Shown in pieces: positions 3,543 to 58,766 of a stretch of 64,000 bases of DNA (position 1 is its first letter; each line of letters opens with the position of its first letter). Where the stretch lies: NCBI GenBank assembly GCA_000165345.1, contig CM000430.1, positions 224,001 through 288,000 of the forward strand, in the 5' to 3' direction. The translations under genes and the position numbers were made by a program. Under the pieces are notes generated by a model. That model ran no database searches. It saw only the letters and a program-made list of their open reading frames with translations, and was not told the DNA's origin.

Positions 3543-4565
3543 TGTTCTGCATTAATATCGTGCTCCCTTTGTTATTCCAAGCTTCTAGCATGCAAGAGTT
3601 TTATTTGTACACAAATTATTATTTCTGATTTTAAAGAAGACAGCATTTTTTGGCGGCAAGTGTCTCTAGTGGGGTTAATTGCCAAACTTGGCCAAATTTG
3701 GCAATGAATAAAAATATCCTTCCCTCCCCACTTATTTTATTTTTCCGTAATTTTTTTGCTTCATGAATGCATTTAATTTCTCCCAAGTCCGTTGCATATA
3801 GTTTCTCCTACTATCGCCTTTGCTAATGACAGGGTTCTACTTTTTTGCATTTTTTCTTCTATTGACAGATCTAATACAAATCACTGGGATGGAACGATCC
3901 GTAATCAGATCTTTAAGGGGGGAAAATTGGAGAACTAATTCGTCTAATAACGGTTGCTAATACCTAGAATAGAGCTAGAGAGGTCTTATTAGCCTCCAAC
4001 CCAACGGAGTTCTTGGCAGACCTCCTTGTTCTCTCTACGCTAGTCTTTGCTACAAACTATTATTACACTACTCCTTTCTCTGCTCTGTTCTAATGCTAAT
4101 ACCTCTCCAAGATTAACCCTAAAGAGAAAAATAAAGTCGAAAAACTTGGCAGAATTGCGTTTCACCAAACGAACGCAATGAAGACCTAGATAAAAAATGG
4201 GCGCCTATAGATCTATAATTGTGACAAAACATTCCTAATAAACATAATAAAGAAGTCTAGTGACAATACTTACAGATTTGATAAATTGGTCAATTAATGC
4301 GCCTTTCCGTCTGTCTTTAAACTTACTATTACGAATAAGTAATTATCGTTATTAGAGACGAATAATACATATAGTAAAAGAGGCGCGCATTTAGACTTAG
4401 CGAACGGTATTTAGGAAATGTTAAATTAACGGAAAAAACCAAAAAGGCGCGACTAAATGACCAAAACAATTCAAAGCTGAACTTTTACTAGAGTATCGGT
4501 TAGCTATTTCCGATTATTAAAGAACTATAGTCTTGGCCTTCTTTAAAGTAATAAAGCACTAAAAT

Positions 4566-6326
4566 ATGCATAATGGGGACTTGCAAGACTCGTTGAATAA
4601 TTCTGTACACTCAAATGCAAGTAATAACTACTGTTGTACTAGACCTTATTTTGACGCCTCAAATAATGTATCTTACAAAATAAGAAATCATGAAAAGAAT
4701 TATAGCGGATTCAAAGAAGGGGCTTCAAATAATGGTAAAGGCTTCAGAAACTTTGTAGGAAATGGCCTCCACCAAAAGAAGTTCCAAAATAATATTTTGT
4801 TGAATCATAAGAGTAATGGTTTTGGTACAAATACAGGTTTAGCTTTGGCTTCTGTCTCATCTTCAAGCTCGCGAGGAATTAGGTCCAGCAAGTTTGGCGA
4901 TAGGTTAGGAAAGTTAGATTGGGGTTCTCAGAACCTTATTCCATTTGAAAAGAATTTTTATCACGAGCACGAAAGTGTTTCTAGTTTATCAAATGAACAA
5001 GTGGATCAAATTAGGAAAGAACGCAAGATAACTATAATAGCGGGTGAAAATGTTCCAAAACCAATCACTAGTTTTGTTACTTCGGGTTTTCCGAATTTCC
5101 TGGTAGATGCTCTTTACCGAACAGGATTTACTGAACCAACGGCGATTCAAGTTCAGGGCTGGCCAGTTGCTTTATCGGGGCATGATATGATTGGCATAGC
5201 CGAAACTGGTTCAGGGAAAACGTTGGGATTTCTACTACCCGCAATGATACATATCAGGGCTCAACCTCTATTGAGATATGGGGACGGACCGATATGCCTT
5301 GTATTGGCACCAACTAGGGAATTGGTAGAGCAAATTAGGGAACAAGCCAATCAATTTGGTAGCATTTTTAAATTAAGAAACACTGCCATTTATGGTGGGG
5401 TGCCAAAGAGACCTCAACAAGCTTCAATTAGAAACGGAGTAGAAATCTGCATTGCTTGTCCTGGTAGGCTTATTGATTTACTAGAGGAGGGTTACACAAA
5501 TCTATCTAGGGTCACGTATCTAGTTCTAGACGAGGCTGATCGTATGCTAGATATGGGGTTTGAGCCCCAGATTAGGAAGTTAGTTTCTCAAATTCGTCCT
5601 GATCGGCAGACGCTGCTGTGGAGTGCGACTTGGCCGAAGGAGGTGCAGAAGCTAGCTAGGGATCTTTGCAAAGAGATTCCCATTCATATAAATGTGGGAT
5701 CTGTGGATGCATTGAAGGCATCCCATAATATTAAGCAGTATGTAAATGTTGTAGAAGAGAGCGAAAAGAAAGCTAAGCTAAAAATGTTTTTGGGTCAAGT
5801 AATGGTTGAATCAGCTCCTAAAGTGCTGATATTCTGCGAAACTAAAAGAGGTGCAGATATTCTAACTAAGGAGTTAAGATTAGACGGCTGGCCTGCTCTG
5901 TGTATACATGGCGACAAGAAGCAGGAAGAGCGTACATGGGTTTTAAATGAATTTAGGACGGGTGCGTCACCTATAATGATAGCAACGGACGTTGCAGCAA
6001 GAGGTTTAGACATAAAGGACATAAACTTTGTAATTAACTTCGACTTCCCAAACCAAATAGAAGACTATATCCACCGCATAGGCAGAACTGGAAGAGCTGG
6101 CGCCACCGGAGTTTCACTATCTTTCTTCACTCCCGACAAATACAGAATGGCGAGTGACCTCATAAAAGTATTAAAAGAAGCCAAACAAAGGGTACCACCG
6201 GAGCTTTTCAAACTCTCACCTCAAAATAAAAGAATGCATCCCAGGAACACCGGCTTCAGAAGAAATAATCCTAATAGTCTTCCGCTAGGTGGCAGTAATA
6301 GAGCGTACCGTGATTTACAGCGCTAA
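4566..6326 (+). CDS. DEAD-box ATP-dependent RNA helicase, DDX5/DDX17/Dbp2 subfamily
   Basis: Q-motif/motif I ([28 protein letters not shown]), Ia (PTRELVEQI), II ([13 protein letters not shown]), III (SAT), VI ([10 protein letters not shown]). The context GWP...SG.DMIGIA.TGSGKT is typical of Dbp2/p68. Asn-rich N-terminal and RG-like C-terminal tails. Confidence 0.9.
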
Positions 6327-6697
6327 TATAACCCAAAAGCAACAATCGATGGACAAGGCAAGTCGAAGCCATGGTCCAAAGTGGTAAGCAGACAACCACA
6401 AAGAAATTGGGGGGTCTAAACCAGCTTAATAGAGACAAGGTTCTTGGTTCATGAAAACTATTTATCGGAGGGAACAGAGGAACTGATCATTTGTGCTAAC
6501 AGCTCAGCTATCTTTGTTTTTTCGGCTATTGAGAATGTTCTTCTCAGCCGGTGCTGAAAACATCACGGCTGCAATAGCAATATAATCAGCGTTGCAGTCT
6601 TCAGGTAAAATGAAGACAAGTGATTTTTACGCAGGCCTTACCTTGACGCATTCGAGGTGGAGCGAAGACATATCCGCACGTACCCAGCTACTAAAAG

Positions 6698-6706
6698 TTT
6701 GGCGCC
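6698..6706. promoter_or_regulatory. E2F-like motif TTTGGCGCC
   Basis: Seen in sequence. It is one member of a recurrent GGCGCC-core family in intergenic DNA and lies inside the GC-rich ORF-free island. Confidence 0.3.
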
Positions 6707-7246
6707 TTGCGGTAATGGCGGTAGCGTTGTAACATTGAGAAAATGAAATAAGACAGCATGCAGGAGTGGATCTAACTAGTTCAACATGTTTAGAGGAATA
6801 AGGATGTTGCGCGTATTCTTTCGGTTATATTATCTGTGCGAAAATAACTGAGTGCGCTGTTTTATTGTGGGCAATTACAAGAGTTCATATTGGTCTTTTG
6901 TGGTGCGAATGAGGCTGTCATTCTTTTTGCTTATACGTTTATTCGTCTTTAGTTGTTAGGGACTAGTTGCTGAGTACCAGAATCCAAACTTTAGCATTTA
7001 TTTCTTTGAAGGACTCCCTCAGTATTACGAGTCTTTCCGCCTGTTGCGAAAAAAAAAATCAAACTCAGGCTTCAGTTCCCAGAAGAATTGCGTTTCCGAC
7101 GAGTATATATGGTTTTGTAGATAATTTGAGTATTAGATATTGGCTTTGTTGTGTTAATTTATTATTTAAGATATTTGTTTTTGTTCGGAATTTTTTCACT
7201 TGGACACATGTTGTGGCTCCTTGAGGGATGTGAATTATATACCGGC

Positions 7247-57307: not shown

Positions 57308-57386
57308 TTTTTCTCAGTTAATTATAAAGAAATTAATAAAAACTTATCTAAAGTATATTTTCTTACTGCGATGTTTGTTAAGTACT

Positions 57387-58655
57387 CTAATGCACTCTAA
57401 CATAGTTACTAGGATCAGTTACTTGTTGATAATGGTCTCTCATAGGTATTAACCAGGTAAAGTTATTAGCTAAAACTCGTGGAAGGTAGTTTAGTCTAAC
57501 AAAGTAGACAATTGTTCGTTTCCAGTTTACCTTCGGCTGTTGAGGGAAACCATCACCTTCAAATATTGCCCTTCTTTTTTCATCCTCGGTGTAATATGAC
57601 TCAATCTTGTAAGTAATATAATCGGCCATTCTTGGATAAAACCTATATTCCTTGAAATAGTAAAGGACCACAATGATACCTAGTAGGCAAAATAGACATG
57701 TTGTGATGAAACTAACGATAGGATCAATAATATATTTGCTTAACAAACCACGACTTTTCTCCTGATTTTTTTGATTCCTTCTTATTGTAGGCTTTGGAAC
57801 CGGGATTTCTTGATTGATCAAGTTTATAGAGTTGGCTGATAACTTACAATTTGAAGAATTTGCAGAATGCCTACATGTATGAATGCAAGTATTTAGTTCT
57901 GAAACAATAAGAGGAGAAATACCTCCGGATTTGTATTGTGCTTGTTTAAGATTGCTCTTGCATCGCTCAATACAGTCCTTAAACATATTAATTACATTCT
58001 TTTCGCATTGATCTGCCGGTAATTCAGGAGATGGACTTGATGGAGTGTTTTGATTAGAAGTTTCTTTCATGTTGTTTGTGTTTTGAGTAGTTCCTTCTAA
58101 CTTTTGTTCAATTAAAGCTTGCTCCTTACTCGAGCTCTCTGAACTCTGGATAGTCGACTTCTTGTTATTTTGTTCATTTAAGTTCTTTCCTGTAAATCCA
58201 AATGAGAACATGTTCCTACCCCTTTCTTCTGGCTTTGTATTATTTTGCGGATTTTCAGGATATAGATGATACTCGAGATAGTGCTTTAAATCTTCAAATT
58301 TTCTTTTTAATATTGGTTTATGTTTCACTTCTTCTTTTTTTGAATTTGAATTAATCCTTGATATTACGTCTTTAATGTTTTGTGGTATCCATGAACTAGA
58401 CTTGGTTTTAGGAGTTGGAGGAGAAACTTTAATCATCTTTTTAAAGCCCTCAAAAACATCAGTTGAGCTTGATGTTACATTTTCATCCATCAGAAACTCT
58501 CTCAATAAGTCCAAATTAAACCATGAATCATTTGTCTGATTTGTGGCTTTGCTATTGACAATAAACAATTCACAAGTTGCATAATTAAATACAGTAAAGC
58601 AACTATATAGAAATATAAATATTGTAGAATAATTAATAAGAGGCAAACTCTTCAT
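57387..58655 (-). CDS. Hypothetical type I membrane protein: signal peptide, Cys-rich ectodomain, single TM, basic cytoplasmic tail
   Basis: Signal peptide MKSLPLINYSTIFIFLYSCFTVFNYATC. Ectodomain with at least eight Cys (CEKNVINMFKDCIERCK…CIHTCRHSANSSNCK). TM helix IVSFITTCLFCLLGIIVVLYYF. Tail of ~80 aa. Confidence 0.5.
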   Translation of the reverse strand: MKSLPLINYSTIFIFLYSCFTVFNYATCELFIVNSKATNQTNDSWFNLDLLREFLMDENVTSSSTDVFEGFKKMIKVSPPTPKTKSSSWIPQNIKDVISRINSNSKKEEVKHKPILKRKFEDLKHYLEYHLYPENPQNNTKPEERGRNMFSFGFTGKNLNEQNNKKSTIQSSESSSKEQALIEQKLEGTTQNTNNMKETSNQNTPSSPSPELPADQCEKNVINMFKDCIERCKSNLKQAQYKSGGISPLIVSELNTCIHTCRHSANSSNCKLSANSINLINQEIPVPKPTIRRNQKNQEKSRGLLSKYIIDPIVSFITTCLFCLLGIIVVLYYFKEYRFYPRMADYITYKIESYYTEDEKRRAIFEGDGFPQQPKVNWKRTIVYFVRLNYLPRVLANNFTWLIPMRDHYQQVTDPSNYVRVH

Positions 58656-58750
58656 TTTAACTACAAATTTTACTTAGTAATTAAGATGGAAGAATTGGTT
58701 TATTTATGCTCAAACTCACTTTTCGTGAGGAAACATGTAAAAATTAGCCA

Positions 58751-58766
58751 ACGTTGGCGCTCAATA
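58751..58766. promoter_or_regulatory. E2F-like variant AACGTTGGCGCTCAAT, about 100 bp upstream of the 57387..58655 gene
   Basis: Seen in sequence. Confidence 0.3.

What the first reader, a model, noticed from the sequence alone, without database searches (positions are those of the whole stretch)
4197..58766. A GGCGCC-core E2F-like motif recurs in at least 14 upstream spacers, including the MCM2 promoter
I found [T]TTGGCGCC[A]AA(T) or close variants at 4200, 6698, 7247, 10028, 17983, 19701, 22898, 29646, 30592, 34513, 39335, 42531, 49818 and 58756. With the exception of 6698, which lies in the ORF-free island, each falls in a 5' intergenic region, typically 40-230 bp from the nearest ATG and often in spacers between divergent genes. 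The palindromic GGCGCC core flanked by T- and A-runs fits the E2F/DP site (TTTSSCGC). MCM2 at 22898 and the MCM6-like gene at 49818 are textbook E2F targets elsewhere. An E2F-like GGCGCC motif has been reported as over-represented upstream of Cryptosporidium genes; I am recalling this and cannot verify it here. The pattern supports both the lineage assignment and shared transcriptional control of replication and housekeeping genes in this region.
Basis: partly seen in the sequence, partly recalled or inferred. Interest (0 to 1): 0.55.

Follow-up and report, generated by a model that had tools for sequence, protein, structure and literature searches.

The report
Known E2F-like promoter motif, Cryptosporidium
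The GGCGCC motif upstream of many genes in this Cryptosporidium parvum chromosome 2 segment is real, strongly enriched and conserved between species, but it is the already published "E2F-like" promoter motif of this parasite, so it is a solid confirmation and not a discovery.

Summary
The window is Cryptosporidium parvum chromosome 2: its MCM2, syntaxin and mitochondrial-carrier proteins match Iowa II exactly, and MCM2 is cgd2_1100 and MCM4 is cgd2_1250.

Nine carry an exact GGCGCC and five are variants. They fall in 12 spacers, not 14.

- **Enrichment.** GGCGCC occurs 13 times against about 1 expected. Ten copies lie in the 19% of the window that is noncoding (P about 1e-5).
- **Rank.** It is the most over-represented of all noncoding hexamers (10 observed, 0.23 expected).
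- **Position.** Most copies lie 100-250 bp from a start codon.
- **Conservation.** Seven of 10 are perfectly conserved in a 50%-GC Cryptosporidium species, against 7% of all noncoding hexamers. Orthologous sites persist in C. ubiquitum, C. felis, C. bovis and C. ryanae.

The motif is already published as the E2F-like Motif 3 (DTTGSCGCCH) and Motif 4 (TTTGGCGGGAAV). It is the most abundant upstream motif in C. parvum, it dominates ATAC-seq open chromatin, and E2F and DP genes are present. Direct E2F/DP binding has not been shown.

- The second MCM gene is MCM4, not MCM6.
- Its own element is at about 49483, not 49818.
- The motif does not imply co-expression.

Side observations are a GCGGTA variant word, absence of GGCGCC in gastric species, and a conserved snoRNA-like element in the "ORF-free island".

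The parts
4200..4205 (.). GGCGCC in the divergent spacer between the RRM gene (-) and the p68 DEAD-box helicase (+). It lies 363 bp from the helicase ATG.
   Evidence: 5 of 6 bases are conserved in Cryptosporidium sp. SRR31860986.
4382..4388 (.). GGCGCGC variant, 181 bp upstream of the DEAD-box helicase ATG. A further GGCGCG lies at 4446-4451.
   Evidence: 7 of 7 bases are conserved in L014.
6698..6726 (.). Cluster TTTGGCGCCTTGCGGTAATGGCGGTAGCG (one GGCGCC plus two GCGGTA words) in the 'ORF-free island'.
   Evidence: The GGCGCC is conserved in L014. The cluster sits about 40-130 bp to the right of a highly conserved noncoding block.
7251..7256 (.). GGCGCC (ATTGGGCGCCAA) 197 bp upstream of the Rpn9/PSD13 ATG. 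A conserved G-rich box GGGAGGGGGGAG follows at 7277-7288.
10030..10035 (.). GGCGCC (TAGGCGCCAATT) 41 bp upstream of the mitochondrial-carrier ATG (9992, - strand). It lies inside the 72-bp spacer after the Cyt-b5 stop codon.
   Evidence: GGCGCC or GGCGCGCC is present at the same place in chipmunk genotype I, sp. SRR31860986 and C. felis.
15473..15478 (.). GGCGCC 165 bp upstream of RPS25 (15641-15961, +).
   Evidence: Conserved at -118 to -165 bp in five species.
17983..17994 (-). TTTGGGCGGGAA, which reads TTCCCGCCCAAA in gene orientation. It is a canonical E2F-type site (published Motif 4), 72-79 bp upstream of the 584-aa hypothetical gene.
   Evidence: 11 of 12 bases are conserved in L014.
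19703..19708 (.). GGCGCC (ATTGGCGCCTAAA) 138 bp upstream of the MBOAT ATG. It lies in the spacer after the MCM2 stop codon.
   Evidence: TTTAGGCGCCAA is conserved in C. parvum, chipmunk genotype I, sp. SRR31860986, C. felis and C. bovis. C. ubiquitum has GGCGGC.
22898..22909 (-). MCM2 promoter element TTTGCCGCCAAA, which reads TTTGGCGGCAAA in gene orientation. It lies 105 bp upstream of the MCM2 ATG and fits published Motif 3 (DTTGSCGCCH). TGCATG (22892-22897) and the G-box GTGGGG (22913-22918) flank it.
   Evidence: TTGGCGG is conserved in 6 of the 7 species aligned, including C. muris at -109 bp. C. bovis has ACAGCGGT there.
29648..29653 (.). GGCGCC (GTGGCGCCAAAT) 109 bp upstream of the syntaxin ATG (- strand).
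   Evidence: Other species have GGCGCC, GGCGCT or GGCGC. C. muris has AGCGCT at the same distance.
30596..30601 (.). GGCGCC (ATTGGGCGCCAAAT) 244 bp upstream of the C2H2 zinc-finger gene ATG.
34515..34521 (.). GGCGCGC variant 69 bp upstream of the ZPR1 ATG.
   Evidence: Conservation was not tested because no locus was held for this stretch.
38010..38021 (-). TACCGCCAAAAA, which reads TTTTTGGCGGTA in gene orientation. It lies 86 bp upstream of the TGS1-like methyltransferase ATG.
   Evidence: Other species carry TTTTGCCGCCAAAA (sp. SRR31860986, 119-122 bp up) and TTTGGCGGGTTTT (C. felis, 74 bp up) in the same upstream region. The MAFFT alignment places only the SRR31860986 site opposite it.
39337..39342 (.). 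GGCGCC (TTGGCGCCAT) in the divergent TECR/Tpt1 spacer, 138 and 180 bp from the two ATGs.
   Evidence: Distances are 143-152 and 178-180 bp in sp. SRR31860986 and C. ryanae, and 147 and 220 bp in C. felis.
42535..42540 (.). GGCGCC (TTTAGGCGCCAATT) 182 bp upstream of the 750-aa hypothetical gene.
   Evidence: GCGCCA is invariant in the four species aligned.
49483..49488 (-). MCM4 promoter element, AAAGCGGTA in gene orientation, about 175 bp upstream of the MCM4 ATG. G-box-like CCCACA words flank it.
   Evidence: It aligns with TTTGGCGCCAAA in sp. SRR31860986, AAGCGGTA in C. felis and TTGGCGGC in C. ryanae. Coordinates.
49818..49829 (+). It lies 128 bp upstream of the COG2-like gene and 510 bp from the MCM4 ATG.
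   Evidence: C. felis has AAGGCGCTA at the aligned place. C. serpentis has AGCGCC 70 bp upstream of COG2. It is not conserved in sp. SRR31860986.
58754..58762 (-). TTGGCGCTC, which reads TTGAGCGCCAA in gene orientation, about 100 bp upstream of the 422-aa hypothetical gene.
   Evidence: TTGAGCGCCAA is identical in C. parvum, sp. SRR31860986 and C. felis. 9 of 9 bases are conserved.

Best explanation
The sites are copies of the E2F-like promoter element of Cryptosporidium: a palindromic GGCGCC core, usually TTGGCGCC or GGCGCCAA, with GGCGGC, GGCGGG, GGCGCG and GCGGTA variants.

They sit in the short 5' spacers of this very compact genome. Typically they lie 100-250 bp upstream of the start codon, often between divergent genes or directly after the stop codon of the preceding gene. 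They are kept by purifying selection at the same distance from the ATG in other Cryptosporidium species.

The most likely mechanism is as follows. A heterodimer of one of the parasite's E2F proteins with one of its DP proteins binds the GCGC core through its winged-helix domains. This marks or opens the promoter (the sites coincide with ATAC-seq peaks in the literature) and drives transcription of the neighbouring gene or genes. The element acts as a general promoter element, not as an S-phase-specific switch.

Shown here: the enrichment, the position and the conservation. Taken from the literature: the motif's genome-wide status, open chromatin at the sites, and the existence of E2F and DP genes. 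Inferred: that E2F/DP is the protein that binds.
For: - Identity of the window: exact matches to C. parvum Iowa II proteins. MCM2 is cgd2_1100 and MCM4 is cgd2_1250, and the published 638-bp upstream length for MCM4 matches the 637-bp spacer here.
- Enrichment: 13 copies against 1.02 expected. Ten of 13 are in noncoding DNA (P = 1.2e-5). GGCGCC ranks first of all noncoding hexamers, 10 against 0.23 expected. Broader E2F-type words are 6-12 fold denser in noncoding DNA.
- Position: 7 of 10 lie 100-250 bp from a 5' ATG.
- Conservation: 7 of 10 are perfectly conserved in a roughly 50%-GC congener. The baseline is 7.4% for all noncoding hexamers (P = 1e-6) and 29.8% for other GC-rich hexamers (P about 0.01, my own binomial calculation on the counts).
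- In five other species, every GGCGCC in 20-23 kb of syntenic DNA is noncoding: 4/4, 2/2, 6/6, 3/3 and 2/2.
- Footprints were seen upstream of MBOAT, RPS25, the mitochondrial carrier, Cyt-b5, syntaxin, the C2H2 gene, MCM2, MCM4, hyp750, TECR/Tpt1 and hyp422.
- Literature: Motif 3 DTTGSCGCCH and Motif 4 TTTGGCGGGAAV lie upstream of 161 of 200 clusters. The E2F motif is the top motif in ATAC peaks and in spacers inside polycistrons. Two E2F and two DP genes are listed. In the ApiAP2 binding-microarray study (PMC4117751) the E2F-like motif is listed among motifs attributed to non-AP2 factors, not among AP2-bound motifs.
Against: - No EMSA, ChIP, CUT&RUN or protein-binding-array result for Cryptosporidium E2F/DP was found. 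A 2025 review states that most regulatory components lack functional validation.
- The motif is upstream of genes of every expression class, which is unlike the classical cell-cycle E2F regulon.
- No retinoblastoma-type partner exists in the parasite.
- Exact GGCGCC is absent from the last 21 kb of the window. It is also absent from about 45 kb of syntenic DNA of the gastric species C. muris and C. serpentis. The core is therefore not obligatory.
- My conservation test rests mainly on one comparison species and on hand-built spacer pairs.
Confidence: 0.8

Rival explanations
1. The element is a real, conserved promoter signal, but a factor other than E2F/DP reads it. Candidates are an uncharacterised GC-box or zinc-finger protein, or a general factor that sets nucleosome-free regions or bidirectional promoters. 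The resemblance to the E2F consensus would then be coincidental.
For: - No direct binding data exist.
- The motif is near-ubiquitous, upstream of 161 of 200 clusters at any time point. That is more typical of a core or general promoter element.
- Half of the sites here lie in divergent spacers.
- Gastric species lack GGCGCC yet share the GCGGTA and TAGCGC words.
Against: - The core and flanks match the E2F/DP consensus closely. Canonical TTTCCCGCC-type sites occur at orthologous or neighbouring promoters (17983; C. muris TTTTCCCGC upstream of MBOAT).
- In the ApiAP2 binding-microarray study (PMC4117751) the E2F-like motif is not among the motifs bound by AP2 domains.
Confidence: 0.15
2. The motif defines a specific cell-cycle (S-phase) regulon that co-regulates the replication genes MCM2 and MCM4 with the other flanked genes.
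For: - MCM2 and MCM4 both carry conserved E2F-like elements next to G-box words.
- E2F-like and CGCCAA-core motifs were reported upstream of C. parvum DNA-replication genes.
- E2F and DP transcripts peak early in asexual development.
Against: - Neither MCM promoter carries the exact GGCGCC. The exact copies sit upstream of RPS25, syntaxin, MBOAT, a mitochondrial carrier, Rpn9 and others.
- Clusters with the motif peak at any of seven time points.
- The most significant motif shared by all replication genes in the 2007 study was a G-rich box, not this one.
Confidence: 0.1
3. The recurrence is a chance or compositional effect, for example GC-rich islands in AT-rich spacers.
For: The noncoding GC content of the first 8 kb is somewhat higher, at 35-40%. 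Three copies occur in coding sequence.
Against: - Spacers are on average less GC-rich than coding DNA, at about 25%.
- A dinucleotide Markov model of the spacers expects 0.23 copies against 10 observed.
- None of 100 shuffles reached the observed count.
- Conservation is above that of GC-matched hexamers.
- The result recurs in five other species.
Confidence: 0.01

Closest known systems
Cryptosporidium parvum E2F-like upstream motifs: Motif 3 DTTGSCGCCH and Motif 4 TTTGGCGGGAAV of Oberstaller et al. 2013 (PMC3734150). They were first seen on chromosome 6 by Bankier et al. 2003, and CGCCAA/GGCG-core motifs were reported by Mullapudi et al. 2007 (PMC1779779).
   Same: Same organism, same sequence, same upstream location. 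The MCM2 (cgd2_1100) and MCM4 (cgd2_1250) upstream regions of this window were part of the 2007 data set.
   Different: Nothing essential differs. What this work adds is local. It provides per-site cross-species footprints, including a 50%-GC species. It shows GCGGTA-type words occupying orthologous positions. It also shows that exact GGCGCC is absent from the gastric-clade loci.
Canonical E2F/DP binding site of animals and plants: TTTSSCGC / TTTSGCGCSAAA (Zheng et al. 1999 structure, as cited in PMC3734150).
   Same: A symmetric SGCGCS core with T-rich and A-rich flanks. Sites are present in MCM gene promoters. E2F and DP winged-helix proteins are encoded in the genome according to the literature.
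   Different: Here the motif sits upstream of roughly a third (exact) to three quarters (broad definition) of all genes, whatever their function. No Rb-family partner is reported. The T/A run is usually on one side only. Binding is untested.
ApiAP2 motifs of Apicomplexa: TGCATGCA, GCACAC, and the G-box G.GGGG.
   Same: These are also short, conserved upstream words in the same spacers. The G-box and TGCATG directly flank the E2F-like element in the MCM2 promoter (22892-22918), and the G-box flanks it in the MCM4 promoter.
   Different: The sequences differ and the binding protein family differs (AP2 domains). In the ApiAP2 binding-microarray study (PMC4117751) the GCGC-core motif is listed among motifs attributed to non-AP2 factors, not among AP2-bound motifs.

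Membership tests
Cryptosporidium E2F-like upstream motif (Motif 3/4, Oberstaller 2013) | Sequence fits DTTGSCGCCH or TTTGGCGGGAAV, with core [C/G]GCGC[G/C] or GGCGGG. | tested here: met
   All 10 noncoding GGCGCC sites fit the SGCGCS core. 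Eight noncoding sites fit WSGCGCSW. Site 22898 TTTGCCGCCAAA fits Motif 3, and 17983 TTTGGGCGGGAA fits Motif 4 apart from one extra G.
Cryptosporidium E2F-like upstream motif (Motif 3/4, Oberstaller 2013) | Over-representation in upstream noncoding DNA relative to coding DNA and to the background model. | tested here: met
   Ten of 13 copies lie in 19.3% of the sequence (P = 1.2e-5). GGCGCC is the top-ranked noncoding hexamer, 10 against 0.23 expected. There are 13 copies against 1.02 in shuffles.
Cryptosporidium E2F-like upstream motif (Motif 3/4, Oberstaller 2013) | The organism is Cryptosporidium. | tested here: met
   Three window proteins are identical to C. parvum Iowa II entries. Synteny holds with seven other Cryptosporidium species.
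Functional E2F/DP binding site (canonical sense) | E2F and DP genes are present in the same genome. | not testable with these tools
   None lies in this window. The literature lists cgd1_1560 and cgd6_1430 (E2F) and cgd7_3650 and cgd8_1850 (DP).
Functional E2F/DP binding site (canonical sense) | Physical, sequence-specific binding by an E2F/DP heterodimer in vitro or in vivo. | not testable with these tools
   No such experiment was found for Cryptosporidium. It remains the open step.
Functional E2F/DP binding site (canonical sense) | Functional constraint, meaning conservation at orthologous promoter positions. | tested here: met
   Seven of 10 sites are perfectly conserved against a 7.4% baseline.
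Functional E2F/DP binding site (canonical sense) | Preferential association with cell-cycle or DNA-replication genes. | tested here: inconclusive
   MCM2 and MCM4 have conserved variant sites. However, exact copies lie upstream of unrelated housekeeping genes, and 24 of 33 genes carry a broad E2F-like word. The literature finds no single expression class.
Functional E2F/DP binding site (canonical sense) | Location in accessible promoter chromatin. | not testable with these tools
   ATAC-seq in sporozoites reports the E2F motif as the top motif in open-chromatin peaks genome-wide. Peaks for these particular sites were not available.

The most novel reading that the evidence does not exclude
The E2F-like element may have lineage-specific 'flavours' that have not been described.

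- Intestinal-clade species (C. parvum, C. ubiquitum, C. felis, C. bovis and others) use the palindromic GGCGCC.
- The gastric clade (C. muris, C. serpentis) shows none in about 45 kb of syntenic DNA. Its most enriched noncoding words are GCGGTA/TACCGC and TAGCGC.
- GCGGTA is also the fourth most enriched noncoding word in C. parvum. At the MCM2, MCM4 and TGS1 promoters it occupies positions where other species have GGCGCC or GGCGGC.

This would mean either co-evolution of E2F/DP specificity with its sites, or a second unreported factor sharing the promoters.

In addition, the one 'exceptional' site (6698-6726) may be the promoter of an unannotated, highly conserved C/D-box snoRNA-like RNA on the minus strand.
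Probability: 0.3. Interest if true: 0.35.

Novelty: already known. Interest (0 to 1): 0.15.

Why it matters
Cryptosporidium is reported to be the only apicomplexan genus that retains E2F/DP. The E2F-like motif is thought to drive a large share of its transcription, including internal promoters of the recently described polycistrons.

This window gives a clean local confirmation with per-site evolutionary footprints. That could help in choosing sites for reporter mutagenesis, or as positive controls for ChIP or CUT&RUN. It does not change what is known.

The open question is whether E2F/DP really binds these sites and what that does. Sequence analysis cannot answer it.

Tried and rejected
- **RNA genes.** Rfam at gathering thresholds and a tRNA scan of the whole window found nothing. 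Rfam at E up to 1 and up to 10 over the ORF-free island gave only sub-threshold C/D snoRNA and JUMPstart noise.
- **Folding.** Folding the conserved island block gave only modest z-scores, -2.3 on the plus strand and -1.95 on the minus strand. Folding alone therefore does not fix the strand.
- **More species for the island.** A metagenome scan for the 21-nt invariant hairpin of the island found no further species.
- **Literature.** Searches for direct E2F binding experiments in Cryptosporidium, and for the GCGGTA word, returned nothing relevant.
- **Alignment artefacts.** Global spacer alignments mis-register two sites (10030 and 29648). They were scored as not conserved, although GGCGCC is present at the equivalent distance. 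I kept the conservative count of 7 of 10.
- **Composition or chance.** Rejected.
- **ApiAP2 site.** Rejected because the published binding-array study does not list the E2F-like motif among AP2-bound motifs.
- **Protein-coding island.** Rejected. There are stop codons in all six frames of the conserved block. No gene is annotated there in GCA_048859185.1. Nucleotide identity exceeds that of the neighbouring coding genes.

Full report
**What the window is.** Translations of three ORFs are identical to Cryptosporidium parvum Iowa II proteins: MCM2 (EAK88850.1), syntaxin (EAK88845.1) and a mitochondrial carrier (EAZ51369.1). They sit on contigs of about 992 kb. Pfam annotation of 30 ORFs shows a compact, almost intron-free array of housekeeping genes. 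These include two CDPKs, MCM2, a second MCM, Rpn9, eIF3L, ZPR1 and RPS25. The second MCM is MCM4. Mullapudi et al. 2007 list MCM2 as cgd2_1100 and MCM4 as cgd2_1250, the latter with a 638-bp upstream region. My MCM4/COG2 spacer is 637 bp. The window is therefore C. parvum chromosome 2, roughly cgd2_1000 to cgd2_1300.

**Checking the observation.** Nine sites contain an exact GGCGCC: 4200, 6701, 7251, 10030, 19703, 29648, 30596, 39337 and 42535. Five are variants:
- 17983 TTTGGGCGGGAA
- 22898 TTTGCCGCCAAA
- 34515 GGCGCGC
- 49818 TTTGACGCGCTA
- 58754 TTGGCGCTC

They occupy 12 spacers, not 14. It lies 165 bp upstream of a 106-aa ORF that the orthologous loci identify as RPS25. Three coding copies at 2562, 6099 and 22293 were also missed.

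**Is it more than chance?** It clearly is.
- GGCGCC occurs 13 times against 1.02 expected from dinucleotide-preserving shuffles.
- I built a gene map of 33 coding spans, checked against the NCBI gene calls for part of the window. On that map noncoding DNA is 19.3% of the window yet holds 10 of the 13 copies (binomial P = 1.2e-5), a density 12-14 times higher.
- I ranked all strand-collapsed hexamers in noncoding DNA against a dinucleotide Markov model of that DNA. GGCGCC came first, with 10 observed and 0.23 expected (Bonferroni P = 2e-10). The overlapping words GCGCCA and CGCCAA came next.
- No copy lies in a 3'/3' spacer.
- Seven of 10 lie 100-250 bp from the nearest 5' ATG. Random placement in the same spacers expects 2.3 (post hoc P about 0.001).

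**Evolutionary footprints.** I fetched syntenic loci around MCM2, MCM4 and Rpn9. They came from C. felis, C. bovis, C. muris, C. ubiquitum, chipmunk genotype I, C. ryanae, C. serpentis and an unnamed Cryptosporidium of about 50% GC (SRR31860986). Gene order is fully conserved in the intestinal species and in C. muris. The C. serpentis locus departs from it beyond the EH-domain gene.

In each of five non-parvum species, every GGCGCC in the 20-23 kb locus is noncoding. That includes 6 of 6 in the GC-rich species, where coding DNA is 53% GC.

Alignments of upstream regions show the motif as a conserved island at a nearly constant distance from the ATG:
- MBOAT: TTTAGGCGCCAA in five species
- RPS25, in five species
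- the mitochondrial carrier
- Cyt-b5, where C. parvum has a degenerate GCGCGT but others have GGCGCC or CGCGCC
- syntaxin
- the C2H2 gene
- hyp750, with GCGCCA invariant
- TECR/Tpt1
- hyp422, with TTGAGCGCCAA identical in three species

In a formal test against the GC-rich species, 7 of 10 noncoding GGCGCC are perfectly conserved. The baseline is 7.4% for all noncoding hexamers (P = 1e-6) and 29.8% for other hexamers with at least five G/C (P about 0.01 from my own binomial calculation on the counts). Two of the three 'misses' are alignment shifts.

**The MCM promoters.** The MCM2 site (22898-22909; TTTGGCGGCAAA in gene orientation, 105 bp upstream) is conserved in all intestinal species except C. 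bovis. It is TTGGCGGTA at -109 bp in C. muris. A TGCATG word and a G-box (GTGGGG) flank it directly, and both are conserved. The site fits published Motif 3, DTTGSCGCCH.

It has counterparts upstream of COG2 in C. felis and C. serpentis. The element conserved in the MCM4 promoter is AAAGCGGTA at about 49483, 175 bp upstream. It aligns with TTTGGCGCCAAA in the GC-rich species and with TTGGCGGC in C. ryanae, again next to CCCAC(A) G-box words.

**What it is and how it probably works.** The sequence, location and conservation identify a promoter cis-element of the E2F type. The literature already says this.
- Oberstaller et al. 2013 report E2F-like TGGCGCCA as the most over-represented upstream motif in C. 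parvum. It lies upstream of 161 of 200 co-expression clusters and was first noticed on chromosome 6 in 2003.
- Xiao et al. 2025 find it as the top motif in sporozoite ATAC-seq peaks and in spacers inside polycistronic units.
- A 2025 review lists two E2F and two DP genes and gives [A/T][C/G]GCGC[G/C][A/T] as their presumed site.
- In the ApiAP2 binding-microarray study (PMC4117751) the E2F-like motif is listed among motifs attributed to non-AP2 factors, not among AP2-bound motifs.

Several sites here fit the internal-promoter picture. Site 10030 lies in a 72-bp spacer between the Cyt-b5 stop codon and the carrier ATG. Site 19703 lies between the MCM2 stop codon and the MBOAT ATG.

The inferred step is that an E2F/DP heterodimer binds the GCGC core and opens or activates the promoter. 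I found no binding experiment. I give the E2F/DP reading about 0.8, another factor about 0.15, and chance about 0.01.

**What is not supported.** The motif does not single out replication genes.
- Exact copies sit upstream of RPS25, syntaxin, MBOAT, Rpn9 and others.
- Ten of 33 genes have GGCGCC within 400 bp of the ATG, and 24 of 33 have a broader E2F-type word.
- Published clusters carrying the motif peak at any time point.

'MCM6-like' should read MCM4.

**Side observations.**
1. GCGGTA/TACCGC is the fourth most enriched noncoding hexamer: 11 observed, 1.29 expected, 3 in coding DNA. It is not among the 25 published motifs. It replaces GGCGCC or GGCGGC at orthologous positions, so it is probably a degenerate member of the same family, one mismatch from GGCGGGAA.
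2. The gastric species C. muris and C. serpentis have no GGCGCC in about 45 kb. Their top noncoding words are GCGGTA (8 against 0.49 expected) and TAGCGC (7 against 0.57). The sample is small.
3. The 'ORF-free island' (6327-7450) has no annotated protein gene. It contains a block that is 96-100% identical to the GC-rich species over 6552-6627, while the neighbouring coding genes are 72-82% identical. The block has stop codons in all frames, visible hairpins and one compensatory change. On the minus strand, 6499-6572 has the layout of a C/D-box snoRNA: a terminal stem, GUGAUGU, and two CUGA boxes, with all boxes conserved. Rfam does not recognise it. It may be an ordinary promoter site after all.

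**Verdict.** The feature is already known, so interest is low. The residual novelty lies in the side observations, which need genome-wide counts and experiments.

Noticed in passing
window 6385-6660 (core 6552-6627); candidate RNA 6499-6572, minus strand: A highly conserved noncoding block lies in the 'ORF-free island' just after the p68 DEAD-box helicase stop codon. It is 96-100% identical to a 50%-GC Cryptosporidium species, against 72-82% for the neighbouring coding genes. It has stop codons in all frames, hairpins and one compensatory change. On the minus strand it has a C/D-box snoRNA layout: GCAGCC-GUGAUGU...CUGA...CUGA-GCUGU. Rfam finds nothing, and no gene is annotated there. The E2F-like cluster at 6698-6726 would lie just upstream of it.
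   Followed up: partly
window noncoding sites 6709, 6718, 11104, 28478, 34185, 38010, 40306, 49483, 61096, 62900, 63047: The hexamer GCGGTA/TACCGC is enriched in spacers: 11 observed, 1.29 expected, only 3 in 51 kb of coding DNA. It is absent from the published list of 25 C. parvum upstream motifs. At the MCM2, MCM4 and TGS1 promoters it occupies the position where other species have GGCGCC, GGCGGC or GGCGGG.
   Followed up: partly
L003 (C. muris) and L010 (C. serpentis), whole loci: The gastric-clade species have no GGCGCC in about 45 kb of syntenic DNA. Their most enriched noncoding hexamers are GCGGTA/TACCGC (8 against 0.49 expected) and TAGCGC/GCGCTA (7 against 0.57 expected, none in coding). 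AGCGCT-type or TTCCGC-type words sit where C. parvum has GGCGCC, for example upstream of syntaxin and RPS25.
   Followed up: partly
window 22892-22918 (MCM2 promoter), 49454-49499 (MCM4 promoter), 7251-7288 (Rpn9 promoter): Three promoters carry conserved composite modules. An E2F-like word lies directly next to a G-box (GTGGGG/CCCCAC or GGGAGGGGGGAG). In the MCM2 promoter a TGCATG ApiAP2-type word is also adjacent. The arrangement is kept across species.
   Followed up: partly
window 30693-30704 (AGGACGCCGCCAATAATT), 150 bp upstream of the C2H2 zinc-finger gene: A CCAAT-box-like block, GACGCCGCCAATAAT, is conserved from C. parvum to C. bovis. It lies in the syntaxin/C2H2 spacer, separate from the two GGCGCC sites there.
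   Followed up: no
L006, L007, L014 (Logan SRR31860986 contig 7242, 91 kb): An unnamed Cryptosporidium with about 47-51% GC, against about 30% in C. parvum. It is fully syntenic with this window and has 79-89% protein identity. Its strong compositional shift makes it an unusually good partner for phylogenetic footprinting.
   Followed up: no
window 34587-35567 and 35623-36069 (+): The ZPR1 gene is split into two ORFs, each with a ZPR1 jelly-roll domain, and 55 bp separate them. This points to a short intron or a frame change. The PLD-like gene (23611-24807) and the DnaJ-like gene (63110-64000) also appear to have upstream exons.
   Followed up: no
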